Position numbers and translations under genes: made by a program. The notes below the pieces were generated by a model. It ran no database searches, was not told where the DNA came from, and was given only the letters and a program-made list of their open reading frames with translations. A DNA stretch of 64,000 bases from NCBI GenBank assembly GCA_038063735.1, contig JBBTUN010000006.1, positions 8,485 through 72,484 on the forward strand, written 5' to 3'. Source of the DNA: Patescibacteria group bacterium. GTDB lineage: Bacteria; Patescibacteriota; Microgenomatia; Curtissbacterales; GWA2-41-24. This document shows, one piece after another, positions 1-56,886 of the stretch. Every line of letters starts with the position of its first letter. Within the stretch, counting starts at the first letter, position 1.

Positions 1-551
1 TTTAAATATAGCGGAATAAATCTGTGCATCTCTCCATACAGTTTTATATTTTTTATTACTTCCGATCTATATGCTTTAAGAGTACATCCATAATCATGCA
101 GTTTAACTCCAGTAACTTTCGAAATCATAATATTAGCAAATTTACTTGGAATTAACCTCGAAAGCAGATTGTCCTTTCTGTTTTTCCGCCATCCAGACAC
201 AACGTCGTATCCCTTGTTTACCCTATCGAATAATAAGCAAATGTCTGCAGGATCGTTTTGCAAATCGCTATCTATAGTAACGATTACTTTGCCGGAAGCA
301 TACTCAAAACCCGCCATTAAGGCAGCTGTTTGGCCAAAATTCCTCGCGAATTCGATAACTTTTACTGATCTGTTTCTTCGCGATAATTCTAAGAGGACAT
401 CATGGCAGTTATCCGTCGAACCATCATTAACAAAAATAATTTCCCATGAAGAAGTAAATTTATTCAGCTCTAATTTCAGTTTCTGAAAAAGGACTTTTAG
501 ATTTTTTTCCTCATTATAAACAGGCGAAATTACAGAGAGTTTTATTGGCAT
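1..551 (-). CDS. Family 2 glycosyltransferase, polyprenyl-phosphate sugar synthase-like (GtrB/Ppm1/ArnC type). The C-terminus runs off the window edge.
   Basis: The minus-strand translation starts MPIKLSVISPVYNEE, then DGSTD and a TIDSDLQNDP (DxD-type) motif typical of GT2 dolichyl-phosphate sugar synthases. The plus-strand ORF 169..486 is an antisense shadow. Confidence 0.75.
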   Translation of the reverse strand, partial: MPIKLSVISPVYNEEKNLKVLFQKLKLELNKFTSSWEIIFVNDGSTDNCHDVLLELSRRNRSVKVIEFARNFGQTAALMAGFEYASGKVIVTIDSDLQNDPADICLLFDRVNKGYDVVSGWRKNRKDNLLSRLIPSKFANIMISKVTGVKLHDYGCTLKAYRSEVIKNIKLYGEMHRFIPLYL

Positions 552-664
552 ACCAATATAAATTACGTCAAGAATTTACTTCTGTTTAGCAAAAATGCCC
601 AAATTAGTCTATAGGCAATATCAATATAATGATTTCCTTAAGATCTTTTTGATAAACTAACAGA

Positions 665-2818
665 ATGATCAAGCAGTTATTAAATAATTCTTGGCCCCTG
701 TTTATTATTGCCATAATTATTTTGATCTTTCATTCTCGCTTATTCATTCCATACACCTCATTTTACAACCCTCCAGATTATGGAAGGAGCGATGCTTGGA
801 ATCTTTCCATTGCAAACAAGTACTATTATTCTCAACAAGTAAAGCTAAATAAGCTGCCAATTTGGAATCCCTTGATAGGTACAGGTTTCCCTGTGCTCGC
901 AGAAGGACAAACAGGGATATTTTTCTTGTCAAATATTGTATTGTTTCGATTTTTACCCTTTCCGCTTGCATACGACATCAATATAATTTTGACGTTTTAC
1001 ATTGCGGCAGTAGGAACATATTTTTTTGCCAGATCTCTTACTCTAAGTAAAATTGCATCGCTCTATGGTGGGATCTTATTTTCCATGGGTGGCTTTTTTG
1101 TAGTACACGTACAGCACCTACACCTAATTCAAGCAGCTTCGATACTACCTTGGCTCTTTTGGGCTATCAATATGTATGTCGGTAGCAGCAGAAAACTATA
1201 CTTAAGCGCATTCGCACTGCTCCTGTCTCAGCAACTTTTTGCAGGTTTTCCACAGCTTGTCTTTTATACACTTTTTGGAATCTGCATCTACTTGTGCATA
1301 AGAATTCTACTTTATAAAAACATCGAGAGAAGCAAACTAATGTTGATAATTCTTTTTACGATTTTAGGCTTCGGATTAGCTGCTGTACAACTATTGCCTA
1401 CATACGAACTACTTAAAGTCTCAGGCAGATCGTATACGGGTGCTAGTATCTTGGAACAATTTCCATACACCTATAAAAACCTTCTGCAATTTCTAAATCC
1501 ATTTATTCTGGGTAGCCCAAAAAATGGTACATATGCAACTTGGTCCCCAGGAACATGGGGGATCTACTGGGAAAGTGTAGCCTACGTCGGCATCATCCCG
1601 CTACTCCTAATACTATCTTCATTTTTTTTCAAGCATCGCGAGAAAGAATCAAAAAAAGTCTTTTGGATTTTCATCATTTTGGGAACACTATCACTTATGC
1701 TCTCATTGGGAAAATATTCCCCTACACACCCTATTTTCTCCATACCTCCATTTAACATATTCAGAGTACCTTCAAGATTTCTTTTAACTACCCAATTTTC
1801 GCTCTCTTTGCTTGCAGCCGGATCGTTAATTAAATTTAAAGGAAAATACATTACATGGGCTATAATATTTATTTCAACTGCAGACATTTTCTATTACTTT
1901 TACAATTACAATCCCACGTATGAAGCAAAAAAATGGCTGCAACCCCCAGAAACTGCCGAAGTCATAGGCAACAATTCTGAAAGAATTCTATCAGTAGGAC
2001 AATCGGAAAATTGGAACAAACACTTTTTAAAGGAAGGCTGGGCTAAGGCCAATGACTATTATTACTTTGCTCGCAACAGCTTAGATCAAAATTCTAACCT
2101 GATCTTCTCAAAATCTCAGATATCCGCTTACGAAAGCTTACGCCCCAAAAGACTAAAAGAATTCACAGACGCTATTTATGATGGTTTTACTGTGGATGGA
2201 AATAAGCTAACTCTAAGCGATAAATCAGCAAGGATGCTTACAGCGTCATATCTGTCTACAATAGTCACAACTAAGGACCTTCAGAATGATAACTACGAGA
2301 AGATTTATCAATATAAGCCTACGGGTAACGACACTTTCAGTGTATATAGCAACAGAGAAGAGCCGATTCGCACTTATATTGCCACGAATTACACATTAGC
2401 AACTTCAATTGATGAAATTAAGGCAATAGCCAAAAATTCAACTTTTGACCCACAAAAAAAGCCAATATTAGAAATTGACCCACTTCTAAGTAAAGATTTC
2501 CTGGCAAGCAGCTGGACAACAAAAATAACAGGTAGTTCAGAGAATGAAGTGAATTTATTCGCCGATTTAAACGGTGACGGCATATTAATACTTGCAGATA
2601 GTTATCATCCTGGCTGGAGTGCTTACGATAATGGACAAAAAGTAGAAATAATACCTGCAAATATTAATCAGAGAGGACTATCTCTAAAAAGCGGGGGCCA
2701 TCAAATTACATTCAAATATCAGCCATCAAGTGTATTTTTAGGAGCGCTGATATCCTTAACAAGCATAATAATTTTATCGATATTTTCTGTGTTTGAATAC
2801 TACAAAAGCAAAAAATAA
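665..2818 (+). CDS. Large polytopic membrane protein, YfhO-like. Putative GT-C fold glycosyltransferase.
   Basis: 717 aa. The N-terminal ~400 aa contains many TM helices and there is a long C-terminal extracytoplasmic domain. The architecture matches the YfhO/ArnT-like family; sequence-level assignment is tentative. Confidence 0.45.
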   Translation: MIKQLLNNSWPLFIIAIIILIFHSRLFIPYTSFYNPPDYGRSDAWNLSIANKYYYSQQVKLNKLPIWNPLIGTGFPVLAEGQTGIFFLSNIVLFRFLPFPLAYDINIILTFYIAAVGTYFFARSLTLSKIASLYGGILFSMGGFFVVHVQHLHLIQAASILPWLFWAINMYVGSSRKLYLSAFALLLSQQLFAGFPQLVFYTLFGICIYLCIRILLYKNIERSKLMLIILFTILGFGLAAVQLLPTYELLKVSGRSYTGASILEQFPYTYKNLLQFLNPFILGSPKNGTYATWSPGTWGIYWESVAYVGIIPLLLILSSFFFKHREKESKKVFWIFIILGTLSLMLSLGKYSPTHPIFSIPPFNIFRVPSRFLLTTQFSLSLLAAGSLIKFKGKYITWAIIFISTADIFYYFYNYNPTYEAKKWLQPPETAEVIGNNSERILSVGQSENWNKHFLKEGWAKANDYYYFARNSLDQNSNLIFSKSQISAYESLRPKRLKEFTDAIYDGFTVDGNKLTLSDKSARMLTASYLSTIVTTKDLQNDNYEKIYQYKPTGNDTFSVYSNREEPIRTYIATNYTLATSIDEIKAIAKNSTFDPQKKPILEIDPLLSKDFLASSWTTKITGSSENEVNLFADLNGDGILILADSYHPGWSAYDNGQKVEIIPANINQRGLSLKSGGHQITFKYQPSSVFLGALISLTSIIILSIFSVFEYYKSKK

Positions 2819-4888
2819 CTAAAAGCCTTTGGGGAATTCACCTGGTGTTTTTCTCATCTCGTCTGCTTTATCAAAATAGTTTTTGGCGTTTACTTGGTCT
2901 TTTAGGCAATTACTATAAACAACAGCAACAGCTTCAACGAACTGCCAGTTCTTGCTATCAATTCTGCTTGCAGTCATAAAATAATCCAATGCTTCGCTAC
3001 AATTTCCCCCTTTAAAGTAGACATCTCCCAAGATTGCGTAAGCTTCCTTTCGGTCTGGAAGTAACATTTTTGCCTTACTAGCAAAAAGTGTAGATTTTTC
3101 TAAACTCCCTTCTGTGAGGTGGTAATTAGCAACTGCGACAAGCGCTTTATAATATTGTTCTTCTATGTGTGTGGTTATATATTGGGTATAGCCAGTACTC
3201 TTTCCAAAGTCTTGGTAGTAAAATTTAGAAAAAGCTTCGTCATTTAGCCGAGATACCTCATCGCTAAAGTCATTGTCACTTGGGTATAACTTTTGGATAA
3301 GTCCTACCGGGAAAGATTTGTAATCTGGATCAAGAACTATATCTTGTATATAAATCGGGAATTTATCGAAGTTTGATTGCACCAAAGCATTCACTGCTCC
3401 TGGATAATCTTTAATACTCGGGTCTAAAAAGTTTTCCGGATAACTAAGTTGTGGGTATTGTTTAACAATCTGCTCTCTGTATTCCAAATAGCTAAGAGAC
3501 CCAGCAGCAATCAATTTTATATTCTCATAACCATCCATTTTGTAATAAATATATCGCGCGTTAAAAAGTGAAGTATCTCCTATTAAAAAAACTATGGCGT
3601 TCGGTTCCGCTGAAACTAAAATGTCGTGTCCATACCAATCTCCAACTTCAAACCGGCTTAAATTTGTCTTTGAATCATTTAAGAAGTAATTTGAAAAGAT
3701 GATCAGAAACAATGACAAGGTCAAAAGTAATTTAATTGAGTCACTTTTTAATACAGCAACTTTGGTATTACTTCTAAAAAATTTGTGGATAAAATTAATA
3801 ACGAACAAACACCCGTAAGCCATAAATATAGCGACAAGGAAGTAACTTGCTAAAATAAATCTTTCCCATAACCCTGTGTAAAAATCATTCGGTAGAGGGA
3901 AAGCAGAGTAAAAAACAAAAAATGGTCCTACAGAGAGTACAGATAAGATGAAAAACCAAAAGTAAATTCTGGCTCGGATAAAGCTATACACAATTCCGAT
4001 AAAAATAAAGAAAATGCCAATATGCGAGAAGTCAGCTTTAAGAAATGATGCAAACCCCCAAACCGACACCAGTCTCTGTAAAAACGTTGAAGAAACCAAA
4101 AATGATGAGGCTGTAAAAGTCCCGTAATCACTCCTTGTGATAAGTCGGACTAGGTTTTGGAAGCTAACAGGATCATCCCAATTTACTGGAGTTTTTCTTA
4201 GTGCAGCCCAAACAACAAAGATGTAAGGTAATAGTCCTAAGGCAAAAAAAGCGATTAGCCTAACAACAAGTAATTTATTTCTATAAATACTTTTGTCCGT
4301 TTTAAATAGGAAATACAGTATGGCAGGTAGTAAAAGCGCAGCAGTATGATGGTGAAACACTGCCAGTCCATAAAAAAACGCTGACCAATTTAATAATTTA
4401 TAATTTTTACTCTTTAAGTAAAATGACTCTCTCCACGAAATCAAAAAATAAATCGCAGCTGCTATTAAAACAATATTTAATTGGAAAACCTCATAAATAT
4501 GTGCGTACAGCCAATACAGGGGTACAAAAGCTAAAAAAAAGCTTGCAAACAAACTAGCAAATATATTTTTTGTCAACTTGTTACAAATCAAATACAATAG
4601 CGAGATAGCCAGCGCACTTAAAAATGCTGCTGCCAGGTTCGCCTTAAAAGCAACTGTTGCATTAAAAGGCAAATGGGTAAAAACCCATCCAATCATGGTG
4701 TTTAGGGGGTAACCTGGCGGATGTGCAACACCACCAAACCAGGAAGCCAAAATAATATCCCCGCTGTCTCCTCCATACACAGAATGCGAAACACCAAGCG
4801 CATATAGGGGAAATAAAAAAAGAAAAACCAAAATCGCCATCATTTTTATTTTAAACATTAAACCACAAAAAGAGGCACGCATACCCAT
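2819..4888 (-). CDS. DUF2723/TMEM260-like membrane glycosyltransferase (protein O-mannosyltransferase-like) with C-terminal TPR repeats.
   Basis: The N-terminus has the GDSGD...HPPGYPL signature of DUF2723. It is multi-TM and the C-terminus has TPR-like repeats. It lies 38 bp downstream of the pilin gene on the same strand. Confidence 0.6.
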   Translation of the reverse strand: MGMRASFCGLMFKIKMMAILVFLFLFPLYALGVSHSVYGGDSGDIILASWFGGVAHPPGYPLNTMIGWVFTHLPFNATVAFKANLAAAFLSALAISLLYLICNKLTKNIFASLFASFFLAFVPLYWLYAHIYEVFQLNIVLIAAAIYFLISWRESFYLKSKNYKLLNWSAFFYGLAVFHHHTAALLLPAILYFLFKTDKSIYRNKLLVVRLIAFFALGLLPYIFVVWAALRKTPVNWDDPVSFQNLVRLITRSDYGTFTASSFLVSSTFLQRLVSVWGFASFLKADFSHIGIFFIFIGIVYSFIRARIYFWFFILSVLSVGPFFVFYSAFPLPNDFYTGLWERFILASYFLVAIFMAYGCLFVINFIHKFFRSNTKVAVLKSDSIKLLLTLSLFLIIFSNYFLNDSKTNLSRFEVGDWYGHDILVSAEPNAIVFLIGDTSLFNARYIYYKMDGYENIKLIAAGSLSYLEYREQIVKQYPQLSYPENFLDPSIKDYPGAVNALVQSNFDKFPIYIQDIVLDPDYKSFPVGLIQKLYPSDNDFSDEVSRLNDEAFSKFYYQDFGKSTGYTQYITTHIEEQYYKALVAVANYHLTEGSLEKSTLFASKAKMLLPDRKEAYAILGDVYFKGGNCSEALDYFMTASRIDSKNWQFVEAVAVVYSNCLKDQVNAKNYFDKADEMRKTPGEFPKGF

Positions 4889-4926
4889 ATGACATAAACG
4901 TGCCTCTTATATGCTTTTAAATTTCA

Positions 4927-5391
4927 TCAAGGAGCTGAGCAACTTGCTGCAGCCAAAATTTCAATGGCAGAACCTTGACTTGATCTCCAGCACCAAAATC
5001 CGGTAGCACCAGTTGGGTCACCTAGAGATGCATACATTGCAACCTCAGAAGGACCACCTCCAGTTCCACATCCCGTTGCGTTTCCAGAAGTTATATAGTC
5101 GTACGCAATACCACCCACGTTTGTTGGTAATTGCTTCAAGTAACCTTGCTGAGTTAACACTGGTAATGAAAGTGGGTAACAACCAGCACCTGGAGTTGTG
5201 AAAAATCCCTGGACCTCTGTGACTACAGCACCAATATCATTCTTCCTCTTGGCGTCTTGTGCTTGTCTTTGTCTTTTCCCAGGATTGATAGCAATAAGTA
5301 CTGCTGCAGCTAAAATACCAATAATGGCAATAACTATAAGAAGCTCGATAAGGGTGAAACCCTTGAGTCTTTTTTGGGCAGATTTAATCAT
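4927..5391 (-). CDS. Type IV pilin / pseudopilin (prepilin-type N-terminal cleavage/methylation domain).
   Basis: The N-terminus reads KGFTLIELLIVIAIIGILAA, a class III signal with a conserved Glu at +5. Confidence 0.85.
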   Translation of the reverse strand: MIKSAQKRLKGFTLIELLIVIAIIGILAAAVLIAINPGKRQRQAQDAKRKNDIGAVVTEVQGFFTTPGAGCYPLSLPVLTQQGYLKQLPTNVGGIAYDYITSGNATGCGTGGGPSEVAMYASLGDPTGATGFWCWRSSQGSAIEILAAASCSAP

Positions 5392-5482
5392 AATTTTTTG
5401 GTTTCACCTCCTCTCGGACAATAAAATTTGTCTATGTATCCAGTATTAACGCAAACTAATTTTTTGTCAACATTCATTTTTA

Positions 5483-6688
5483 TCAAAATTGGGCTGTAAG
5501 GTTATAAATAGGCATGATAATAGAAAGCACCAAGACACCAACACTTGCACCCAGCACGACTAATATAATCGGCTCAAGAGCCGTAGTTAGGTTTCTTACC
5601 ATGTTTTCGCTTTCCTGCTCAAAATAAAGGGCAAGCCGCCCCAAAACCTCATCCATTTTCCCTGTTTCCTCGCCAACACGAATCATTTGGGCAATAATCG
5701 GCGGAAAAACCGGATTGGCCGCAAGAGGTACATGCAGTGGGGAACCCCTTTCTACTCTTGTCATAGCATTGTCTATCCCATCACGGTAAGTGGAATTAGT
5801 TAATATGTCCCGAACCACACGCAGCGCCGTAATAATTGGTATTCCTGTGCCAATCAAAAGACCCAGAGTCCTTGTAAACTCTGCCAAAATTAAAGTTTTT
5901 CGCATCTTGCCCCAAACAGGTAAATTTAAAACTACTTTGGAAATCAAATCGGCGCCTTGTGGAGTTTTTGCAAAAGTCCTGAAAGCAAATGTGGCGCCGC
6001 CAATTACAATAATAATAAGCCACCAAAAACCTCTCATAAAGTTAGACACTCCTATGAGTATTCTGGTTATTAGAGGGAGTTGAGTCCCCATTTCTGTATA
6101 AAGACTGGTTAATTTGGGGATAACAAAAATCATCATCATAGTCATCACTACAACCATCACAAATACAACGATTACAGGGTAGATAAACGCACCCTTAGTT
6201 TTAGACTTGAATTCTCTTTCTTTTTCCAAAGATTCCGCCAGCTTTCCAAGCACCTTGTCCAGAACACCGCCTGTCTCACCAGCCTCAATCAATTTTATGT
6301 ATACAACCGTAAAAACCTTAGGATGCGTCGCCATTGCCTGAGAAAGAGAAAGTCCTCCTTCAACATCGGTAACTACTTGCGACAACACTTTTGCAAAAGT
6401 GCCACTTTTGGTCTGCCTTTGCAAAATCATCAAGGAATCCGTAATAGGTAACCCCGCAGAAACCATGGTAGAAAGCTGCCGTGTGAATCCAACTAGTTCT
6501 CCGTAAGAAACACCGCCTCCAAAAGAAAATCCACTTACGAGGCTCTTGCCCCCTTTTTTTCTAACATCAATGGGGGTCAGCTTTTCTTGCTGGAGAATCT
6601 TGATGAGTGAAGCCTCGTCTATCGATTCAACTTCCCCGGAGACTGCCTTTCCTTCTGCATCTTTTGCTAAATATTTATATAAAGACAT
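5483..6688 (-). CDS. pilC: Type IV pilus assembly platform protein PilC (GspF family).
   Basis: 401 aa with duplicated GspF-type domains and 3 TM segments. It sits between the pilin and pilT. Confidence 0.85.
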   Translation of the reverse strand: MSLYKYLAKDAEGKAVSGEVESIDEASLIKILQQEKLTPIDVRKKGGKSLVSGFSFGGGVSYGELVGFTRQLSTMVSAGLPITDSLMILQRQTKSGTFAKVLSQVVTDVEGGLSLSQAMATHPKVFTVVYIKLIEAGETGGVLDKVLGKLAESLEKEREFKSKTKGAFIYPVIVVFVMVVVMTMMMIFVIPKLTSLYTEMGTQLPLITRILIGVSNFMRGFWWLIIIVIGGATFAFRTFAKTPQGADLISKVVLNLPVWGKMRKTLILAEFTRTLGLLIGTGIPIITALRVVRDILTNSTYRDGIDNAMTRVERGSPLHVPLAANPVFPPIIAQMIRVGEETGKMDEVLGRLALYFEQESENMVRNLTTALEPIILVVLGASVGVLVLSIIMPIYNLTAQF

Positions 6689-6707: not shown

Positions 6708-7802
6708 TCACTTCTCTTTGTCTTGCACAATCCTGCTTTCAATTAGCCGCTCAAGCTCTTTTGGTCTTAAACTGTACCTTTTGGCAGTATCAATAGAAAT
6801 TTTTCCGGCCCTAACCAAATAGGCAAGCGAGGCGTCAAAAAGCACCATGCCACTTTCTCCGGACGTTTGAATAATATTATCGATTTGGTGAGTTTTTCCG
6901 TCACGAACCGCGGTTTGCACGGCATTAGATGAAAGGAGAATCTCGCAAGCAGGTATCCTGCCCCCACCGATAACTGGAACCAAACGGATAGAAATTATTC
7001 CGGCAATTGTCGCCGCTAGTTGCATTCTAACTTGTGCTTGCTGGTTCTCCGGGAAAACGTCAATAATACGGTCAATAGATTGCGCAGCGCTGTTGGTGTG
7101 CAGCGTTGCAAACACCAAATGCCCGGTTTCGGCAACCGTTATAGCGGAAGCAATCGTTTCAAAATCTCTCATCTCACCAACCAATACAACATCTGGGTCT
7201 TCCCGCAGAGCGCTCCGCAGAGCAACATCCCACGAGTGCGTATCCAAGTGCATTTCCCGCTGGGAAACTAACGCCTTTCCCTTTGGATACACATATTCAA
7301 TAGGGTCCTCAATCGTCAATATATGCAGTGGTTGGTTCATATTAATTTCATTGATAACAGAAGCAATAGCCGTAGACTTTCCGTGCCCGGTAGGACCCGT
7401 AACCAAAATGAAACCTTGTCTCATGGCCGCAAAATTGTGCAGAATTCTTGGCAGGGACAATTCTTCAATAGTCTTAATATAATTTGGAATAAGCCTGAGA
7501 GCTGCCGAGATATACCCCTTTTCAAAGTAGGCATTAACCCTGAACCTGGCAACTTCTCCAAGAGCAAACGAGAAATCAATTTCTTTATTAACTGTAAACA
7601 TTTCCCGCTGCTCGGTAGAAAGAAGTTCAAAAACTAAACTTTCCGCTTCATCCGGCGACAGGGAACTGGACGTTAACGGTATTAACTGCCCATCGATCCT
7701 AATCATTGGAGGATGACCGGTAACCAAATGCAAATCCGATGCTTCTTTCTTTACCGTTATTTCTAAAAATTCCTGTATACCCATAAAATCAGTCAGGGTC
7801 AA
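6708..7802 (-). CDS. pilT: Twitching-motility retraction ATPase PilT. The real start is probably the ATG at 7784.
   Basis: Walker A GPTGHGKST and Asp/His boxes. Length is about 358 aa. The ORF-finder start is a TTG; an in-frame ATG (MGIQEF) lies 6 codons downstream. Confidence 0.85.
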   Translation of the reverse strand: MTLTDFMGIQEFLEITVKKEASDLHLVTGHPPMIRIDGQLIPLTSSSLSPDEAESLVFELLSTEQREMFTVNKEIDFSFALGEVARFRVNAYFEKGYISAALRLIPNYIKTIEELSLPRILHNFAAMRQGFILVTGPTGHGKSTAIASVINEINMNQPLHILTIEDPIEYVYPKGKALVSQREMHLDTHSWDVALRSALREDPDVVLVGEMRDFETIASAITVAETGHLVFATLHTNSAAQSIDRIIDVFPENQQAQVRMQLAATIAGIISIRLVPVIGGGRIPACEILLSSNAVQTAVRDGKTHQIDNIIQTSGESGMVLFDASLAYLVRAGKISIDTAKRYSLRPKELERLIESRIVQDKEK

Positions 7803-7852: not shown

Positions 7853-9619
7853 TTATTCCTGCGCGACCCTTAGTACCTCCTCTATTGTAGTTGTACCTTC
7901 TATCACTTTTAAATAACCATCTTGCTTCATAGTTATCATACCATCAGAAACTGCCTGGTTTTCCAAAGTTTGAGCTGTTTCACGAACAAGTATCAGTCTC
8001 GATATTTTCTCCGTAATCAGGAGCATTTCATAAATTCCTATTCTGCCCTGATAGCCGGTATTGTTACAATCCGGACAACCACGGCCGGCAAACAGCGTAA
8101 TTTTATTTTTTTCAAAGTCATATAGATTCCCTAAAACTTTCTTTAGCTCAGTAAGAACCTCACCGCTTACATCTTTCTGAAAGCGGCAAGTAGAGCAAAT
8201 TTTCCTAACAACACGCTGACCCACAACGCAGGTAACTGTAGAAGCGATCAAATACGGTTCGGCATGCATATCCAAAAGTCTTGGCAAAGCACCCGCCGAA
8301 CTATTAGTGTGAAGTGTAGAAAACACCAAATGTCCGGTCAAAGACGCCTGAATTGCAAGGTCTGCGGTTTCCGCGTCCCGAACCTCACCGACCATGATGA
8401 TGTTTGGGTCCTGACGCAAAAAAGACCTTAAACCGGAAGCAAACGTTAAACCTGCCTGCGTATTAACCTGCACCTGGTTTACACCGGCAATTTGATATTC
8501 GATAGGGTCCTCCAAAGTCACAATGTTAACGGCAGTCGAATTAAGCTTAGATAAAATAGAGTAGAGTGTCGTTGTCTTTCCGGATCCTGTTGGCCCGGTT
8601 ATCAAGATGATTCCATGCGGCCTGGCAATCGAATCCTGTAAGTTCGAAAGCGCCTTTCCCCTCAAACCCAATTCCGGCAATGTAGGCACACCTCCGGATT
8701 TCTTGAGAAGCCTCATAACGATCTTTTCCCCAAAGGCTGTCGGCAAAGTCGAAAGCCTTAAATCAAGATCTTCCTGGCCAATTTTAAAGTTAAACCTGGC
8801 GTCTTGCGGAATTCTTTTCTCGTCGATCTTCATGTTCCCCAGGATTTTTATCCTGGAAATTACCGCATCATGTATTTTGCGAGGTAAAACAAGTTTCTCC
8901 TGCAAAATTCCGTCTATTCGGTAACGAACCCTCGATTCGTTCTCCAGAGGCTCAATATGAATGTCCGATGCTTTTATCTTGATACCATATTCAAGTACCG
9001 TAGAAACGATCCTGGCAACCGGCGCTTCGCCTAAAACCGTTGTTGCGTCAAATTGTTGAACCTGTGTTTTTGATCCGCCCGCCGCATCCTTTAAAGCTTC
9101 TGTTACTTCCGAAGAAAGCCCCCTGTTGTACTGGTCTGCGATCGCGCGGTTAATAGAATCTGCCGTTGCCAAAAATGGCCTTACGGACAAACTGCTTTTT
9201 TTCTCCAAAAATTCAATAGTTTGCAAGTCTAATGGATCAACCATTGCCACAGACAAGGTGTCAACATCCTTGGAGATCGGTATTACCGTAAATCTCTTTG
9301 CAACATCTTCGGGTACAAAGTTTAAAAGTTCCGGAGAAAGCGGTTGAGTATCTGGCCTCGCGTAACCAACACCCATGACTATCGCCTTAGTCTGGGCTAT
9401 TTGTTCGGTAGACACCCAATTCATCTGCGCAATAATGGTTTCGGAAGTTTGTTGCCTTCTTTTTGACTCGTTTTTAACAAAGCTGACTTGCTCGGTAGTT
9501 AGAAGTCCTTTATCATGAAGTACGTCTTCTAAATAAGAAACTTTTTTGGTCTCATGTGGTTTAGTTTGCGCGATTTGGGCAGTACTGTTCATGCGATCAA
9601 TATACAAACACAGTGGCAA
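7853..9619 (-). CDS. pilB: Type IV pilus assembly ATPase PilB (GspE family).
   Basis: 588 aa with an N-terminal GspII domain, Walker A GPTGSGKTTT and a C-terminal tetracysteine motif CxxC...CPDC. Confidence 0.85.
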   Translation of the reverse strand: MPLCLYIDRMNSTAQIAQTKPHETKKVSYLEDVLHDKGLLTTEQVSFVKNESKRRQQTSETIIAQMNWVSTEQIAQTKAIVMGVGYARPDTQPLSPELLNFVPEDVAKRFTVIPISKDVDTLSVAMVDPLDLQTIEFLEKKSSLSVRPFLATADSINRAIADQYNRGLSSEVTEALKDAAGGSKTQVQQFDATTVLGEAPVARIVSTVLEYGIKIKASDIHIEPLENESRVRYRIDGILQEKLVLPRKIHDAVISRIKILGNMKIDEKRIPQDARFNFKIGQEDLDLRLSTLPTAFGEKIVMRLLKKSGGVPTLPELGLRGKALSNLQDSIARPHGIILITGPTGSGKTTTLYSILSKLNSTAVNIVTLEDPIEYQIAGVNQVQVNTQAGLTFASGLRSFLRQDPNIIMVGEVRDAETADLAIQASLTGHLVFSTLHTNSSAGALPRLLDMHAEPYLIASTVTCVVGQRVVRKICSTCRFQKDVSGEVLTELKKVLGNLYDFEKNKITLFAGRGCPDCNNTGYQGRIGIYEMLLITEKISRLILVRETAQTLENQAVSDGMITMKQDGYLKVIEGTTTIEEVLRVAQE

Positions 9620-19900: not shown

Positions 19901-20202
19901 CTTTTTTCAAAAAAAACGGGGTAGAGGCAACCATGCTATATAAAATTTATGAAAAGAAAAAGCCGAACGTTTTAAACGTGTTGCATTCTAAAAAAGTTGA
20001 CCTGGTAATTAATATCTTTGACCCATACTTTAAAAAAGAGTTCGATGATGACTACCAAATTCGAAGAACAACCATTGACTACGCAATTCCGCTACTCACC
20101 AATATGCAAACGGCCGAACTTTTCGTCCAAAGTATCAAAGAAAAAAAACTCAGTGATTTAAAAACTAAACCCTGGCAATCATACGTCAAATTTCAGAATT
20201 AA
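16912..20202 (+). CDS. carB: Carbamoyl-phosphate synthase large subunit.
   Basis: 1096 aa with two ATP-grasp halves and an MGS-like C-terminus. It carries a ~35-aa low-complexity insertion at the domain linker. Confidence 0.95.
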   Translation: MKILLLGSGALKIGQAGEFDYSGSQAIKALKEEGHEVLLINPNIATIQTSQGFADKVFFLPVEPYFVAKIIEDEKPDAILLSFGGQTALNCGLELAKKGLFKKYNVKVLGTGVDAIETTEDRELFVKSLNKIGARTPNSFAAKNLQEAKTYAQKIGYPVMIRSAFSLGGQDSGIAANPKDLKEIVSRSLSKVKQVLIEEYLLNWKEIEYEIVRDKNDNCITVCNMENIDPMGIHTGESIVVAPSQTLNNYEYHTLREIAINVIRHLGVVGECNIQFALNPNPQMSTGPALDYRIIEVNARLSRSSALASKATGYPLAYVATKLALGYSLTEIKNSVTQKTIACFEPALDYLIVKFPRWDLTKFVKSNHLIGSSMQSVGEVMAIGRKFEEAIQKAARMLDLGLEGITDDNIPNADYKEPTPWRLFKIAQKIKDGQPIEKIAGATGINKFFLEKIKNITDAENNLKNKKTLTREKLLNLKQLGFSDKRISTLLDSTNQKVKSLRDKYKIAPVTKQIDTLAAEYPAQTNYLYLTYNGTKDDIDSNSKSQTSNTKQYQNQKLQTPNRSKEADFGNWKLEIGNSGKVLILGSGPYRIGSSVEFDWCSVTSAISAKENGFLPIVINCNPETVSTDFDMAERLYFEELSEETVLEIYKKENPLGVIVSMGGQKPNNLTPYLARAGVNILGTSPASIDNAEDRDKFSKLCDDLEISQPPWAKLKSTEDALKFANSIKYPVLVRPSYVLSGAAMNVAFNAQDLSEYLSLASNVSKEHPVVISKFIQNAKELEIDAVASGGNIICQAISEHVENAGVHSGDSTLVLPAQKLYIQTVKKVKETAAKIAKSLNISGPFNIQFLAIDNEIMVIECNLRASRSLPFVSKVLGTNYAKLATQAILGLNPKPINKKLPTTYVAVKAPQFSFSRIKGADPVLRVEMSSTGEVACFGDDTSEAFLKSIIATGTTLPKKAVFISLAGDENKAKFLDSAKTLNTIGLKIYATAGTTAFFKKNGVEATMLYKIYEKKKPNVLNVLHSKKVDLVINIFDPYFKKEFDDDYQIRRTTIDYAIPLLTNMQTAELFVQSIKEKKLSDLKTKPWQSYVKFQN
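18619..18646 (+). repeat. (GGAAATT) x4 tandem repeat inside the carB linker insertion.
   Basis: ggaaattggaaattggaaattggaaatt encodes GNWKLEIGN. Upstream are CAAA-rich low-complexity codons (KSQTSNTKQYQNQKLQTPN). Confidence 0.7.
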
Positions 20203-21166
20203 CCTTCTTGTCAACGTAATTACCAACTTGACCATTTCCGCTATGAAAAGCCTTATGGACATCTTTAAGCTGAGAATTGGTAACGTGCGTGTAAATTTGT
20301 GTGGTAGCCACATTTTTATGGCCCAACATTTCCTGGACAGATCTTAGATCCGCTCCGTTTATTAAAAGATCAGTAGCAAAAGAATGTCGCAAAACATGCG
20401 GAGTAGCTTTAACAGGCAATCGAGCAGATTTGACATATTTTTCTACCATACGCTGGACAGAACGTGATGTTAATCTCATTTCTTCACTGCCAAGCGTTGG
20501 GTCGAGGCTGCCGGAATAACGAATGAAGAGTGGCTTAAACATATCTTTTCTTTTTTCCAAATACTTTCCTACCCATAGAGCAGCCCTGTCCGAAATAAAC
20601 ACAATCCTTTGTTTTTGCCCCTTGCCAATAATTCCAAATTCACGTCTCTCGAGGTTAATTGAGTCACGGTTTAATTTGCAAAGCTCCGAGACACGAAGAC
20701 CTGTCGAAAATAACATTTCAAGAAGTGACTTATCGCGGACTCCAGGTTCTGAGCTTACGTCTGGCTGGGCAAGTAACCGCTCCAACTGATCCCTATCCAA
20801 AAACTTTAATGACCTGCTTTCTGCCTTCGGCAATTCAATTTTGTCCGGCGTAACAACTTTTAAATCCTTCTTAACCAAATAGCGCAAAAAGGATCGCAGT
20901 GAAATAACATAATAATTTTGGGTAACCTTTTTTAGGGGCAAATTACCGTTCGTGCTTAAAAAGTGGGCTAAATACACTCGATACTTCCTTATTAAATCGA
21001 CTGTTAAGTCTTGAGGCTTGGAAATAGGCGCATTTCCCTTCTGCCAATCGTCAAAAAACTCCAAGTAATGTCGATAGTCGCGAATAGTAAGAGGGGAGAG
21101 GTTTCGCTCAATTTCGCAATATTCTAAGAAGTCGATGATCTGGGCAGTTAAATCAAACATAAACAA
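20186..21166 (-). CDS. Tyrosine site-specific recombinase, XerC/XerD-like.
   Basis: 326 aa with an N-terminal SAM-like domain. The C-terminus reads HVLRHSFATDLLINGADLRSVQEMLGHKNVATTQIYTHV, giving the R..HxxR..Y catalytic residues. It overlaps the carB end by 17 nt. Confidence 0.85.
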   Translation of the reverse strand: MFMFDLTAQIIDFLEYCEIERNLSPLTIRDYRHYLEFFDDWQKGNAPISKPQDLTVDLIRKYRVYLAHFLSTNGNLPLKKVTQNYYVISLRSFLRYLVKKDLKVVTPDKIELPKAESRSLKFLDRDQLERLLAQPDVSSEPGVRDKSLLEMLFSTGLRVSELCKLNRDSINLERREFGIIGKGQKQRIVFISDRAALWVGKYLEKRKDMFKPLFIRYSGSLDPTLGSEEMRLTSRSVQRMVEKYVKSARLPVKATPHVLRHSFATDLLINGADLRSVQEMLGHKNVATTQIYTHVTNSQLKDVHKAFHSGNGQVGNYVDKKVNSEI

Positions 21167-54642: not shown

Positions 54643-56886
54643 ATGAAAATGCTAAAACAAAATTGGCAGTTGATTTTCGTTTCCTCTCAAATACTTTTTC
54701 TAGAACTTCTTGTAATTCGATTGATATCAACGGAGATTAGAATCTTTGCTTACTTTTCAAACTTAGTTCTCCTCGCCACATTTATCGGTTTAGGCTTCGG
54801 CATGATTCTTCGGAAGAAATTCCCGGTCGCTATTTCCGCCATATCTCTTTTTCTCATGGTGGTTGCAGCTTCTACAAATTATATTGTACGATGGCCAAAA
54901 ATCGATTTTAAATTCTTTTCTGGAGTTACAGAGCTTCTTGCACCCCTTTCCGAATCATACATTTGGCTTACAACAAGCACATATTCAAAATCAGGCATAA
55001 TAATCGGTTTTCTCTTGCTAATAATATTATTCATCAACATAGTTCTGATATTTATGCCCCTTGGCCAAATTATGGGAAATCTTCTAGAAAAACATAAAAA
55101 ACCCATTCTTGCTTATTCAATAAATATAGTCGCTTCCCTGGCAGGCTTGTGGATATTTCAAATCTTTTCTCTTTCCAGATTCACACCTTACTTTGGTGTT
55201 GTACTCGCAATATCAGCACTCTTCTTTCTCACAAAAGATAAAACTGAAAAGTATTTAATAATAGCAATTGCAGTTGCGACAATAGCTTTTATTGTGCCAA
55301 AATCCCTTCCAGAAAAGTTTCGCGCAACCTATTGGTCTCCTTACCAAAAACTGACGCTCTCGGCATCAGAAAAGGATCCTTCAGAAAGGCATCCTCAACC
55401 GGAAGGTTGGTATTTGGAGGTAAACAATGTAGGTTATATGGCTCTCTTGAATATTAGCAATGATTACAAAAACAAGGCAAAAGAAGAACTAACCAAATTG
55501 TACGGGAACAACACACCTATAGATACAAATTTTTCAGATAATTATTCGCTACCGTACAAATTCAAACCCCTTCCTCAAGATGTTTTGATAATAGGAGCAG
55601 GTGCAGGTAACGATGCAGCGGCAGCCATAAGAGAAGGTAAGAGACTCTATGAACTAAACCCTCCTGTGAGTATGACAGAAGAGCAATATTTACAAAAGGC
55701 ACCAAGAATCGACGCCGTGGAAATTGATCCAACAATTATTGAGATTGGAGAAAAATATCATCATGAAAAACCCTATCGTGAACCGAATGTAAACATAATC
55801 GTTGATGATGGTCGTTCATTTATGGAGAGAACCGACAAAAAGTATGACCTTGTTATTATGAGTCTCGCTGACTCTCACACGCTATCATCATCGCTTAGTA
55901 ATTTAAGACTCGATCACTACCTTTATACACAGGAGAGCTTTGCCCAAATCAAAGATTTGCTCAAAGACAACGGTGTTCTTTTCTTGACATTTGAGGTGAC
56001 CCGCTCGTGGATAGGAGACAGACTGAATCGCGGTCTAGTTAACGTTTTTAATCAAGAACCAAAAATATTCGAGGTTAGGTCAAATGGCGTTTTTGGCTGG
56101 GGAGGATACTCTTTTGTTGTTTCTAAAAATCCCCAAACCTTAAAGGATATTCTCGCGAATAATAATGACCTTAATCAATTTGTCGTGAATAACCAAAGGG
56201 TCTTCAATACAAACACCAAACCTCTTACGGACAATTGGCCCTATCTCTATTTGGACAAACCACGTTTACCTCTAATTCACGTCATCGTTGCGCTCATTTT
56301 CAGTTTGGCCTTGCTAATTGCCAGAAAAGGACTACTTGGAACAAATAAACTGAATTGGGCAATGTTTTTCTGGGGCGCGGCTTTCCTACTTTTCGAATTT
56401 CAAAATATTTCCAAAGCGAGTCTGCTATTCGGAGTGACTTGGCAAACCAACTTATTCATGATAAGCGCAATACTTGTACTTCTACTTTTTGCTAATTGGA
56501 CAGTTCAAAAAACGCTGATTAAACCAAAGATCGCGTTCATATCGCTTATTGCAAGTCTGGTATTACAAATTTTCTTCCTGCTGGAAACCTTAAACAATTT
56601 TGGCTTTTGGCAAAAAATCGTCTTTGCTAGCTTAGTGCTTAATTTGCCACTCTACTTCGGAGGGGTTATATTTGTCGACATGTTCGCTAAATCACGAGAC
56701 AAAGCTAATGCTTTTGGGTCAAATTTTTTGGGAGCCGTATTTGGTGGTCTTGCAGAGATGTTTTCTTTCTTATTTGGAATCCATGCTCTGCTTTACATAG
56801 TTATAATTTTATACTCACTTGGGTTTATGGCCTCAAATTACATAAAAATTTTGCCTCATAAATTATTCCCAATTCTTAGAAAGTGA
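54643..56886 (+). CDS. Spermidine-synthase-fold (aminopropyltransferase-like) methyltransferase-fold domain fused between N- and C-terminal membrane domains.
   Basis: 747 aa. About 7 TM, then VLIIGAGAGN...VDAVEIDPTIIEIGEKYHH...DLVIMSLADS (spermine/spermidine synthase fold), then more TM. Confidence 0.65.
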   Translation: MKMLKQNWQLIFVSSQILFLELLVIRLISTEIRIFAYFSNLVLLATFIGLGFGMILRKKFPVAISAISLFLMVVAASTNYIVRWPKIDFKFFSGVTELLAPLSESYIWLTTSTYSKSGIIIGFLLLIILFINIVLIFMPLGQIMGNLLEKHKKPILAYSINIVASLAGLWIFQIFSLSRFTPYFGVVLAISALFFLTKDKTEKYLIIAIAVATIAFIVPKSLPEKFRATYWSPYQKLTLSASEKDPSERHPQPEGWYLEVNNVGYMALLNISNDYKNKAKEELTKLYGNNTPIDTNFSDNYSLPYKFKPLPQDVLIIGAGAGNDAAAAIREGKRLYELNPPVSMTEEQYLQKAPRIDAVEIDPTIIEIGEKYHHEKPYREPNVNIIVDDGRSFMERTDKKYDLVIMSLADSHTLSSSLSNLRLDHYLYTQESFAQIKDLLKDNGVLFLTFEVTRSWIGDRLNRGLVNVFNQEPKIFEVRSNGVFGWGGYSFVVSKNPQTLKDILANNNDLNQFVVNNQRVFNTNTKPLTDNWPYLYLDKPRLPLIHVIVALIFSLALLIARKGLLGTNKLNWAMFFWGAAFLLFEFQNISKASLLFGVTWQTNLFMISAILVLLLFANWTVQKTLIKPKIAFISLIASLVLQIFFLLETLNNFGFWQKIVFASLVLNLPLYFGGVIFVDMFAKSRDKANAFGSNFLGAVFGGLAEMFSFLFGIHALLYIVIILYSLGFMASNYIKILPHKLFPILRK

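What the first reader, a model, noticed from the sequence alone, without database searches (positions are those of the whole stretch)
1..5391. Putative lipid-linked protein O-glycosylation module (GT2 synthase plus two GT-C membrane transferases) fused to the type IV pilus operon
On the minus strand the order is pilB-pilT-pilC-pilin. Then, 38 bp later on the same strand, comes a DUF2723/TMEM260-like protein with the GDSGD...HPPGYPL motif, many TM helices and C-terminal TPR repeats.

A YfhO-like 717-aa polytopic membrane protein converges on it. Next to that is a GT2 of the dolichyl/undecaprenyl-phosphate sugar synthase type (SPVYNEE...DxD).

By established knowledge, GT2 Ppm/GtrB-type enzymes make polyprenyl-P-sugars. 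GT-C enzymes (Pmt, ArnT, YfhO, TMEM260) use those donors to glycosylate extracytoplasmic acceptors. Human TMEM260 is a protein O-mannosyltransferase.

Co-orientation and near-abutment with the major pilin gene suggest the pilin is the glycosylation substrate. That would be an uncharacterised pilin O-glycosylation route, distinct from the PglL/TfpO O-oligosaccharyltransferase routes.
Basis: partly seen in the sequence, partly recalled or inferred. Interest (0 to 1): 0.6.

Follow-up and report, generated by a model that had tools for sequence, protein, structure and literature searches.

The report
Pilin-linked TMEM260-type glycosyltransferase module
In an uncultured groundwater Patescibacteria genome the major type IV pilin gene is followed directly by a bacterial relative of the human protein O-mannosyltransferase TMEM260, and this pairing recurs across related genomes, so the pilin is probably its sugar-acceptor, although nobody has shown this experimentally.

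Summary
**Observation: confirmed.**
- The minus strand carries pilB-pilT-pilC-pilin.
- A 689-aa TMEM260/DUF2723 protein follows the pilin after 38 bp.
- A 717-aa YfhO protein converges on it with no gap.
- A GT2 gene lies divergent from YfhO and runs off the window edge.

**Enzymes**
- Both membrane proteins have a GT-C fold in confident AlphaFold models.
- The DUF2723 protein matches human TMEM260 at E 5e-41.
- It keeps all six residues shown to be essential in the human enzyme.
- The full-length GT2, read from the source contig, is 319 aa with two C-terminal membrane helices. That is the ArnC/GtrB/PgfS architecture.

**Linkage**
- About 30 Microgenomates species keep pilin→DUF2723 adjacent, at 25–50 % protein identity.
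- The pair survives rearrangements of the neighbouring genes.
- It also recurs as pilR-pilA-DUF2723 in a Myxococcales subclade.
- The three-gene module is not a fixed unit. The GT2 is variable, and YfhO is replaced by a PMT_2 GT-C in some lineages.
- Variable sugar-biosynthesis genes cluster around the pair.

**Reading**
This is most likely pilin O-glycosylation from a polyprenyl-phosphate sugar. The closest known analogue is P. aeruginosa TfpW. The substrate is inferred, not shown. I rate it a new variant of a known kind, of moderate interest.

The parts
1..551 (-). 5' part (183 codons) of a GT2 polyprenyl-phosphate glycosyltransferase of the ArnC/GtrB/PgfS type. The gene runs off the left end of the window.
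   Evidence: PF00535 6.4e-33. Full-length gene on the source contig, L081 8928-9887: 319 aa with two C-terminal TM helices at 233-261 and 263-296. End-to-end match to the ArnC model NF007986 (209.7 bits) and the PgfS model NF047588 (159.5 bits), both below their equivalog cut-offs.
552..664 (.). 113-bp divergent intergenic region between the GT2 and YfhO genes.
   Evidence: Sequence reading. No function tested.
665..2818 (+). YfhO-family GT-C membrane glycosyltransferase, 717 aa. TM core about 1-412, extracytoplasmic alpha/beta plus beta-sandwich domain 418-685, C-terminal TM anchor 688-715.
   Evidence: PF09586 1.1e-18. C-terminus matches PgfM2 at 8e-08. AF2 pLDDT 92.6, pTM 0.92. Foldseek top hits are AftD, STT3/PglB/AglB, Pmt4 and Emb. 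Convergent partner of DUF2723 in about 20 related loci.
2819..4888 (-). TMEM260/DUF2723-family GT-C glycosyltransferase, 689 aa. 11-TM GT-C core (about 3-408), Rossmann-like domain (about 415-555), TPR domain (about 570-680). Putative pilin O-glycosyltransferase.
   Evidence: PF11028 5.8e-24. Human TMEM260 (PDB 9rql) E 5.3e-41 over residues 19-496, and profile E 2.9e-63. D41/H56/R252/Y255/R343/D438 align with the essential human residues D52/H67/R264/Y267/R355/D441. AF2 pLDDT 88.2. Foldseek hits PglB, ArnT, DPY19 and ALG12.
4889..4926 (-). 38-bp pilin-DUF2723 spacer with an AGAGG Shine-Dalgarno-like element at 4907-4903 and no terminator-like hairpin.
   Evidence: In relatives the equivalent gap runs from -52 to +110 bp.
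4927..5391 (-). Type IV (major-type) pilin, 154 aa. Class III signal/N-methylation motif KGFTLIELLIV, four Cys, conserved T65-T66 at the end of alpha1. Proposed acceptor.
   Evidence: PF07963 1.9e-09 and TIGR02532. It is the only pilin-motif ORF in the 64-kb window. Strong GGAGG RBS. Alignment with 23 CPR pilins that precede DUF2723.
5442..5470 (-). Promoter-like element TTGACA-17-AATACT upstream of the pilin, in the pilC-pilin gap.
   Evidence: This is a consensus match only; the total number of such matches in the region is not above the shuffled expectation.
5483..6688 (-). pilC platform protein.
   Evidence: PF00482 7.4e-64.
6708..7802 (-). pilT-type retraction ATPase.
   Evidence: PF00437 1.4e-41.
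7853..9619 (-). pilB extension ATPase.
   Evidence: PF00437 3.4e-129 plus MshEN 7e-18.

Best explanation
The locus is a type IV pilus operon with a built-in, lipid-carrier-dependent pilin O-glycosylation system.

**Proposed steps**
1. A membrane-anchored GT2 loads a sugar from a nucleotide donor onto polyprenyl (undecaprenyl) phosphate at the cytoplasmic face. Its architecture is shown; its activity and the sugar are inferred.
2. The lipid-linked sugar is flipped across the membrane. No flippase was identified.
3. On the outer face, the TMEM260-family GT-C enzyme encoded 38 bp downstream of the pilin binds an extended stretch of the membrane-anchored prepilin or pilin. It uses its Rossmann-like and TPR domains for this.
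4. It then transfers the sugar to a Ser or Thr, using the same catalytic residues as human TMEM260. Homology and residue conservation are shown; the identity of the acceptor is inferred from conserved gene linkage.
5. The convergent YfhO-family GT-C is a second polyprenyl-phosphate-sugar transferase. It either adds or extends a further sugar on the pilin or modifies another envelope acceptor. This point is undecided.

Variable sugar-tailoring genes gather around this core in different species: aminotransferase, acetyltransferase, methyltransferases, an AsnB-like amidotransferase, a GT4 and further GT-C proteins. This implies strain-variable pilus glycans.
For: **The enzyme is intact and looks active**
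- Sequence match to the human TMEM260 structure: E 5.3e-41 with the single sequence, 2.9e-63 with the profile.
- The six residues whose mutation inactivates human TMEM260 align to D41, H56, R252, Y255, R343 and D438.
- These are invariant or nearly so in 30 homologues and in about 70 of 78 bacterial homologues.
- The AF2 model is confident and has a GT-C fold plus a TPR domain.

**Gene linkage**
- 24 CPR loci, plus L040 read by hand, have a pilin within 400 bp upstream on the same strand. The genes often overlap or lie 2-50 bp apart.
- DUF2723 identity in these loci falls to about 25-30%.
- The pair persists when pilBTC is inverted (L026, L027) and when a TPR gene splits pilC from the pilin (L084).
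- In Levyibacteria-type loci the gene sits inside the operon: pilA-DUF2723-PMT_2-pilD-minor pilins.
- The only insertions between the pilin and DUF2723 are glycosylation-type genes: a PMT_2 GT-C; DegT plus GT2; a methyltransferase.
- A separate Myxococcales subclade has sigma54-regulator (pilR-like)-pilA-DUF2723, followed by another putative membrane glycosyltransferase.

**Donor side**
- The full-length GT2 has the ArnC/PgfS architecture.

**Precedents**
- TfpW and the GtrB/PgtC2 and PgfS/PgfM1 pairs.
Against: - There is no biochemical or mass-spectrometry evidence, and no CPR pilin has been shown to be glycosylated.
- gyrB and holB are also syntenic with the pil operon in these genomes. Inherited synteny therefore explains part of the conservation.
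- Most non-CPR DUF2723 homologues, about 40 loci, have no pilin nearby. The pilin link is clade-specific, not a family property.
- The pilin lacks the human TMEM260 sequon.
- The GT2 is not a conserved neighbour.
- YfhO homologues glycosylate teichoic acids in Firmicutes.
- One relative, L085, also encodes a Wzy_C+TPR protein nearby that could be a PglL-like transferase.
Confidence: 0.55

Rival explanations
1. The DUF2723 enzyme is a general extracytoplasmic protein (or envelope) O-glycosyltransferase with many or different acceptors. Its position next to the pilin is inherited synteny without substrate specificity.
For: - gyrB-holB-pilBTC synteny is equally conserved in this lineage.
- Most DUF2723 homologues outside this clade are not next to pilins.
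- Streptococcal GT-C systems glycosylate many Ser/Thr-rich proteins.
- The pilin lacks the TMEM260 sequon.
Against: - The adjacency survives local rearrangements that break other neighbour pairs (L026, L027, L084).
- The gene lies between pilA and pilD/minor pilins in one lineage.
- An independent pilR-pilA-DUF2723 arrangement exists in Myxococcales.
- Human TMEM260 is a narrow, sequon-directed enzyme.
Confidence: 0.25
2. GT2 plus YfhO form a separate system that decorates a cell-wall polymer or other surface proteins, as CsbB/YfhO does for lipoteichoic acid. This system is unrelated to the pilin, so only DUF2723 would be pilin-directed. This rival concerns part of the locus and is compatible with the best explanation.
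For: - YfhO homologues transfer sugars to teichoic acids in Bacillus and Listeria (cited).
- YfhO is on the opposite strand.
- YfhO is absent from Levyibacteria-type pilin-DUF2723 loci.
- In L084 the GT2 and YfhO are co-directional with DegT and a GNAT, forming their own operon.
Against: - YfhO converges on, and often overlaps, the 3' end of DUF2723 in about 20 species.
- Where YfhO is missing, another GT-C (PMT_2) takes the adjacent position inside the pil operon.
- YfhO-family enzymes are proven protein O-glycosyltransferases.
Confidence: 0.35
3. The DUF2723 protein is a non-catalytic pilin accessory or assembly factor. In this reading the TPR scaffold acts like PilW/PilF or the TfpY-type proteins, and the enzyme has been co-opted from a glycosyltransferase ancestor.
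For: - There is a weak TPR similarity to PilW (TIGR02521, 0.009).
- Accessory genes downstream of pilA often aid assembly.
Against: - All six residues essential for catalysis and donor binding in TMEM260 are invariant across the clade.
- The full GT-C core is retained with high model confidence.
Confidence: 0.04
4. The pilin is glycosylated en bloc by a PglL/TfpO-type O-oligosaccharyltransferase using an undecaprenyl-diphosphate-linked oligosaccharide. The two GT-C enzymes would serve other purposes.
For: A Wzy_C+TPR protein, an ABC-2 exporter and GT1 genes lie next to YfhO in one relative (L085).
Against: - No Wzy_C domain is detected in either GT-C protein of the window or within 10 kb on the source contig.
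- No initiating phosphoglycosyltransferase was seen in the island.
Confidence: 0.05

Closest known systems
Human TMEM260 protein O-mannosyltransferase (PDB 9RQL/9RQM; bioRxiv 10.64898/2026.03.17.711096; PMC10214176)
   Same: - Homologous over the GT-C core and the Rossmann-like domain (E 5e-41).
- Same domain order: GT-C, then Rossmann-like, then TPR.
- All six essential residues are conserved, including the unusual catalytic base in the Rossmann-like domain (D441 in human, D438 here).
   Different: - Bacterial, in a single-membrane CPR cell.
- The lipid carrier is presumably undecaprenyl rather than dolichyl phosphate, and the sugar is unknown.
- The proposed acceptor is a type IV pilin rather than IPT domains, and the human sequon is absent from the pilin.
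- No TPR-to-TPR alignment with TMEM260 was obtained, so the acceptor groove was not compared.
TfpW of Pseudomonas aeruginosa group IV strains (bioRxiv 10.1101/2020.04.19.049825)
   Same: - A GT-C membrane enzyme of about 650 aa with 11 TM helices and a periplasmic C-terminal TPR domain.
- Encoded immediately downstream of pilA.
- Modifies the pilin on Ser/Thr from a polyprenyl-phosphate monosaccharide donor.
- This is the same genetic and mechanistic logic as proposed here.
   Different: - TfpW is described as ArnT/Emb-like with a DDX motif, and it polymerises D-arabinofuranose.
- The protein here is TMEM260-family, with GGDSGD...HPPGYPL.
- No D-Araf pathway genes were seen.
Streptococcal GtrB/PgtC2 and PgfS/PgfM1/PgfM2 protein O-glycosylation (bioRxiv 10.1101/2024.05.05.592596; PMC5856776)
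   Same: - A GtrB-type GT2 makes Und-P-sugar and YfhO-family GT-C enzymes transfer it to Ser/Thr of extracytoplasmic proteins.
- The window GT2 matches the PgfS model end to end.
- The YfhO C-terminus matches PgfM2.
   Different: - Scores are far below the equivalog cut-offs.
- The streptococcal acceptors are Ser/Thr-rich disordered regions and adhesins, not pilins.
- There is no TMEM260-type partner in streptococci.
PglL/TfpO (PilO) O-oligosaccharyltransferases
   Same: Pilin O-glycosylation; tfpO also lies directly downstream of pilA.
   Different: - Those enzymes carry a Wzy_C domain and transfer preassembled Und-PP-oligosaccharides en bloc.
- Neither GT-C protein here has Wzy_C.

Membership tests
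TMEM260-like / DUF2723 GT-C glycosyltransferases (PF11028) | Profile match above the curated cut-off. | tested here: met
   85.3 bits against a 24.2-bit cut-off, E 5.8e-24.
TMEM260-like / DUF2723 GT-C glycosyltransferases (PF11028) | Homology to the experimentally characterised member (human TMEM260) across the GT-C core and the luminal Rossmann-like domain. | tested here: met
   phmmer E 5.3e-41 over residues 19-496 against 30-499. Profile E 2.9e-63.
TMEM260-like / DUF2723 GT-C glycosyltransferases (PF11028) | Essential donor-binding and catalytic residues (human D52, H67, R264, Y267, R355, D441). | tested here: met
   They align to D41, H56, R252, Y255, R343 and D438 (residue list). They are invariant or at least 90% conserved in A1, and about 70 of 78 bacterial homologues keep the pattern.
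TMEM260-like / DUF2723 GT-C glycosyltransferases (PF11028) | GT-C fold with 11 TM helices, followed by Rossmann-like and TPR domains on the extracytoplasmic side. | tested here: met
   AF2 pLDDT 88.2, pTM 0.88, with the expected secondary-structure layout. Foldseek hits PglB, ArnT, DPY19 and ALG12, and TPR proteins for the C-terminus. Topology is inferred from the positive-inside rule and the odd number of TM helices, not tested. The fold was not compared directly with 9RQL because that entry is not in the Foldseek library.
TMEM260-like / DUF2723 GT-C glycosyltransferases (PF11028) | Acceptor carries the TMEM260 sequon (P-x5-P-x3-G-P-x2-[GA]-G-G-x2-[TS]). | tested here: not met
   There is no full or core sequon in the window pilin or in 25 pilins encoded next to homologues. 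This concerns acceptor specificity, not family membership.
TMEM260-like / DUF2723 GT-C glycosyltransferases (PF11028) | Transfers mannose from polyprenyl-phosphate-mannose to Ser/Thr. | not testable with these tools
   Needs biochemistry or MS.
YfhO family GT-C (PF09586) | Profile match above the cut-off, with GT-C fold, a large extracytoplasmic domain and a C-terminal TM anchor. | tested here: met
   67.6 bits against 28.5. AF2 pLDDT 92.6. Foldseek hits AftD, STT3, PglB, AglB and Pmt4.
YfhO family GT-C (PF09586) | Conserved acidic catalytic residue in the first extracytoplasmic loop. | tested here: inconclusive
   D43 is at least 90% conserved and E80 is invariant in 29 homologues. There was no structure-based mapping to a characterised YfhO enzyme.
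ArnC / GtrB / PgfS-type polyprenyl-phosphate GT2 | GT-A catalytic domain with DxD, plus two C-terminal TM helices, about 310-320 aa. | tested here: met
   PF00535. Full-length 319 aa on L081 with TM-like segments at 233-261 and 263-296. End-to-end alignment to the ArnC and PgfS models.
ArnC / GtrB / PgfS-type polyprenyl-phosphate GT2 | Orthology to ArnC or PgfS (score above the equivalog cut-off). | tested here: not met
   209.7 against 529 bits for ArnC, and 159.5 against 500 bits for PgfS. The sugar specificity is therefore unknown.
TfpW-type pilin GT-C glycosyltransferase | Gene immediately downstream of pilA; GT-C core with a C-terminal periplasmic TPR domain. | tested here: met
TfpW-type pilin GT-C glycosyltransferase | Sequence homology to TfpW, with the DDX motif in loop 1. 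| not tested
   The TfpW sequence was not obtainable with these tools. By reading, loop 1 here carries GGDSGD rather than DDX, which suggests a different GT-C family.
PglL / TfpO O-oligosaccharyltransferases | Wzy_C (PF04932) domain. | tested here: not met
   No Wzy_C hit for either membrane protein at E<=0.01.
Type IVa pilus operon | PilB, PilT and PilC, plus a pilin with the class III signal/N-methylation motif. | tested here: met

The most novel reading that the evidence does not exclude
A clade of bacterial TMEM260-family enzymes are dedicated type IV pilin O-glycosyltransferases. They use their TPR and Rossmann-like 'hand' to grip an extended pilin segment, perhaps the conserved [ST]-T at the end of alpha1. 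Together with hypervariable neighbouring sugar-tailoring genes, they would give the episymbiosis pili of Patescibacteria strain-specific glycan coats. This would be the first assigned substrate for any prokaryotic TMEM260 homologue. It would also hint that protein-specific, sequon-directed O-glycosylation by this family predates metazoans.
Probability: 0.4. Interest if true: 0.7.

Novelty: new variant of a known kind. Interest (0 to 1): 0.55.

Why it matters
- Type IV pili are the conserved surface organelles through which Patescibacteria (CPR) attach to and feed on host cells. Whether and how their pilins are glycosylated is explicitly listed as unexplored (PMC11623550).
- TMEM260 was recognised as a human O-mannosyltransferase only in 2023. 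Its bacterial homologues are mentioned only in passing (PMC10214176), with no known substrate.
- A conserved pilin-TMEM260 homologue gene pair gives both fields a concrete, testable enzyme-substrate hypothesis. It also offers a small soluble-domain acceptor for studying the family.
- The variable glycan genes around the pair suggest diversifying selection on pilus surface chemistry, by phage or by host recognition. This parallels the TfpO/TfpW phage-defence roles in Pseudomonas.

Tried and rejected
- **Source contig via P0001:** the exact-sequence look-up of the NCBI DUF2723 protein failed. The contig was reached through YfhO protein P0121 instead.
- **TPR asparagine ladder of TMEM260:** neither phmmer nor the profile aligned the TPR region to 9RQL. 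This was left untested.
- **TMEM260 sequon in pilins:** absent, so it was rejected as a way to predict the acceptor site.
- **TfpW homology:** the sequence could not be obtained.
- **Terminator and promoter scans:** counts were not above the shuffled expectation. I use them only to note that no hairpin lies between the pilin and DUF2723.
- **GT2 as a conserved module member:** rejected. It is present next to YfhO only in the window genome and L022 among the GTDB loci.
- **Non-catalytic accessory-protein reading:** rejected because of the invariant catalytic residues.
- **Literature:** searches for DUF2723, for TMEM260 plus pili, and for CPR pilin glycosyltransferases found no prior description of this linkage.

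Full report
**What is in the sequence**

The left 9.6 kb of the window carries, on the minus strand:
- pilB (7853-9619);
- pilT (6708-7802);
- pilC (5483-6688);
- a 154-aa type IV pilin (4927-5391) with a canonical KGFTLIELLIV leader.

All have strong profile matches.

The other genes of the finding are as follows.
- **DUF2723 protein.** A 689-aa protein (2819-4888) starts 38 bp after the pilin stop, on the same strand. It matches Pfam PF11028 'Protein O-mannosyl-transferase TMEM260-like' at 85 bits against a 24-bit cut-off, and it has C-terminal TPR repeats.
- **YfhO protein.** A 717-aa YfhO-family protein (665-2818, plus strand; PF09586, 67.6 bits against 28.5) converges on it. There is no intergenic base between the two stop codons.
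- **GT2.** A GT2 gene (3-551, minus strand) lies divergent from YfhO across 113 bp and is cut by the window edge.

No terminator-like hairpin separates the pilin from the DUF2723 gene. The pilin is the only pilin-motif ORF in the 64-kb window.

**Origin**

Identical proteins are annotated 'MAG: Patescibacteria group bacterium'. The same locus lies on 89-117-kb contigs from Hainich groundwater metagenomes. The closest relatives are Candidatus Curtissbacteria (Microgenomates).

The rest of the window is housekeeping: gyrB, gyrA, carAB, dnaB, proteases and others.

**The TMEM260-like enzyme**

- phmmer against all PDB sequences gives human TMEM260 (9RQL) at E 5.3e-41 over residues 19-496.
- A 30-sequence profile raises this to 2.9e-63.

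The 2026 cryo-EM preprint on TMEM260 identifies the following essential residues:

| Human residue | Location | Role | Residue here |
|---|---|---|---|
| D52, H67 | sugar-recognition motif | donor sugar binding | D41, H56 |
| R264, Y267 | donor loop | phosphate and sugar binding | R252, Y255 |
| R355 | TMH10 | contacts the mannose | R343 |
| D441 | Rossmann-like domain | catalytic base | D438 |

All six positions are invariant or at least 90% conserved among 30 homologues. About 70 of 78 bacterial homologues retrieved from GTDB genomes keep the pattern.

The AlphaFold2 model is confident (pLDDT 88.2, pTM 0.88). It shows 11 TM helices, a mixed alpha/beta domain at about 415-555, and TPR helices at 570-680. 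This is the same order as the GT-C, Rossmann-like and TPR domains of TMEM260. Foldseek places the model with PglB, ArnT, DPY19, ALG12 and ALG9, which are all polyprenyl-phosphate-sugar-dependent GT-C enzymes.

It is not met: this is an intact, probably active enzyme.

**YfhO and the GT2**

- The YfhO model is confident (pLDDT 92.6). Its best structural matches are AftD, STT3/PglB/AglB, Pmt4 and Emb, so it too has the GT-C fold.
- The full-length GT2, read from the source contig, is 319 aa with two C-terminal hydrophobic helices.
- It aligns end to end with the NCBIfam models for ArnC (Und-P-Ara4FN transferase) and PgfS. Both scores are far below the equivalog cut-offs.
- It therefore has the architecture of a polyprenyl-phosphate sugar synthase, but the sugar is unknown.
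- Downstream of the GT2 and outside the window lie an AsnB-like amidotransferase, three methyltransferases, a GT4, and a 437-aa polytopic protein with no family match.

**Is the link to the pilin real?**

I scanned one genome per GTDB species with a DUF2723 profile and annotated 10-kb flanks of the best 80 loci.

- *Main arrangement.* Every Microgenomates-type locus with enough flank has a pilin within 7 kb of DUF2723. In 24 loci, plus L040 by hand, the pilin lies directly upstream on the same strand. The gaps run from -52 to +110 bp, with one at 280 bp. DUF2723 identity falls to 25-30%. YfhO converges on the 3' end in about 20 of these loci, often overlapping it by 4-128 nt.
- *Levyibacteria-type loci.* YfhO is missing and the order is pilA-DUF2723-PMT_2-type GT-C-pilD-minor pilins, all on one strand.
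- *Curtissbacteria insertions.* In three loci the pilin and DUF2723 are separated by 1.6-6.8 kb. The identifiable inserted genes are glycosylation-type: a PMT_2 GT-C; DegT plus GT2 plus membrane proteins; a methyltransferase plus membrane proteins.
- *Rearrangements.* The pair also survives inversion of pilBTC (L026, L027) and insertion of a TPR gene between pilC and the pilin (L084).
- *Third arrangement.* L019-L021 and L028 place DUF2723 close to a pilin of a pilB-pilC cluster, convergent with it in L020.

Caveat: gyrB and holB are also syntenic with this operon. Conservation alone therefore over-counts, because the loci are related by descent.

The most independent evidence comes from outside the CPR. 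A Myxococcales subclade (L063, L065, L066, L073) shows a sigma54 NtrC-type regulator, then one to three PilA-like pilins, then DUF2723. In L063 another putative membrane glycosyltransferase follows.

Most other non-CPR homologues have no pilin nearby. The association is therefore a property of particular clades, not of the whole family.

**What is not conserved**

- Among the GTDB loci, a GT2 beside YfhO is seen in only one besides the window (L022).
- In the 73%-identical relative, a LegC/DegT aminotransferase, a GNAT and a different 247-aa GT2 precede YfhO instead.
- The stable core is therefore pilin plus DUF2723, usually with a second GT-C. A changeable set of sugar-biosynthesis genes surrounds it, as in a variable glycosylation island.

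**Mechanism proposed**

*Inferred from established knowledge of ArnC/GtrB-type GT2 and GT-C enzymes, and from the TMEM260 structures:*
1. The GT2 charges undecaprenyl phosphate with a sugar in the cytoplasm.
2. The lipid-linked sugar is flipped across the membrane.
3. The TMEM260-type enzyme binds an extended segment of the membrane-anchored pilin through its TPR and Rossmann-like domains.
4. It transfers the sugar to Ser or Thr, with D438 as the base.
5. YfhO, or PMT_2 in other lineages, adds or extends a second sugar, or serves another acceptor.

*Shown here:* homology, catalytic residues, folds, gene order and its conservation.

*Inferred:* the donor, the topology, and the pilin as acceptor.

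The human sequon is absent from these pilins. The only well-conserved hydroxyl pair in the pilin family is [ST]-T at the end of alpha1 (T65/T66 in the window pilin; 83-88% S/T in 24 CPR pilins). I offer this only as a candidate site.

**Comparison with what is known**

- *TfpW.* The logic 'GT-C with a C-terminal TPR domain, encoded right after pilA, using a polyprenyl-phosphate monosaccharide' is that of P. aeruginosa TfpW. TfpW is described as ArnT/Emb-like with a DDX motif, so it is probably a different GT-C family. I could not test this.
- *Streptococci.* GT2 plus YfhO-family protein O-glycosylation is established there.
- *PglL/TfpO.* These are excluded because there is no Wzy_C domain.
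- *Literature.* The searchable literature does not link DUF2723/TMEM260 homologues to pili. The Saccharibacteria pilus study states that CPR pilin glycosylation is unexplored.

**Verdict**

Gene-linkage evidence points strongly to the pilin, and the enzymes are correctly identified and look active. The substrate is unproven, the three-gene 'module' is not a fixed unit, and a close functional precedent exists.
- Novelty: a new variant of a known kind, namely a TMEM260-family enzyme in the role played by TfpW.
- Interest: moderate (0.55). It offers a first candidate substrate for bacterial TMEM260 homologues and a concrete route to glycosylated CPR pili. It is not a conceptual surprise.

Noticed in passing
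L081 2190-3503 (+), off-window on the source contig; also L084 1544-2851 and 2832-4139, L002 6497-7795, L005 5589-6923 and 6907-8229: A family of ~435-aa polytopic membrane proteins recurs, sometimes in tandem, in the sugar-gene islands next to the pilin/DUF2723/YfhO core. It has no Pfam or NCBIfam match; mutual phmmer E-values run from 1e-27 to 1e-80. It could be an undescribed glycosyltransferase, polymerase or flippase.
   Followed up: partly
window 2818/2819; relatives L006-L035: The convergent DUF2723 and YfhO genes abut exactly in the window. In about 20 related genomes their 3' ends overlap by 4-128 nt. This is an unusually tight convergent arrangement, and its regulatory meaning is unknown.
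   Followed up: no
L085 12303-17872: In one relative (the contig carrying P0107), YfhO is followed by a 644-aa Wzy_C (PF04932)+TPR protein, an ABC-2 transporter pair, a methyltransferase and GT1 genes. This could be a PglL/TfpO-like or O-antigen-ligase-like system beside the same pilin locus. No equivalent was seen near the window locus.
   Followed up: no
window 61866-63326 (-): A 486-aa protein with three cytochrome b5-like haem-binding domains (PF00173, E 1.5e-67). This is unexpected in a Patescibacteria genome with minimal redox metabolism.
   Followed up: no
window 57674-59443 (-) and 54643-56886 (+): Two large fusion proteins: a DsbD_TM + AhpC/TSA + Thioredoxin_10 fusion (589 aa), and a 747-aa protein with a central spermidine-synthase-like domain.
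   Followed up: no
window 4853-4895 (-): A 14-codon out-of-frame ORF starts at the ATG at 4895, only 7 nt after the AGAGG Shine-Dalgarno-like element. It overlaps the annotated DUF2723 start at 4888. NCBI instead annotates the start at M17 (4840). The true start, and any translational coupling, are unresolved.
   Followed up: no
window 5194-5199 (-), pilin residues T65-T66: An [ST]-T pair at the end of the pilin alpha1 helix is conserved: 83-88% S/T across 24 CPR pilins that precede DUF2723 genes. It is a candidate glycosylation site, by inference only.
   Followed up: partly
L081 1-1935 (off-window, left of the glycan island): Two small toxin-antitoxin-like pairs (DUF433/DUF5615 and RHH_1/ParE) flank the sugar-gene island. 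The window also carries a tyrosine recombinase gene at 20186-21166. Both are possible marks of a mobile or variable region.
   Followed up: no
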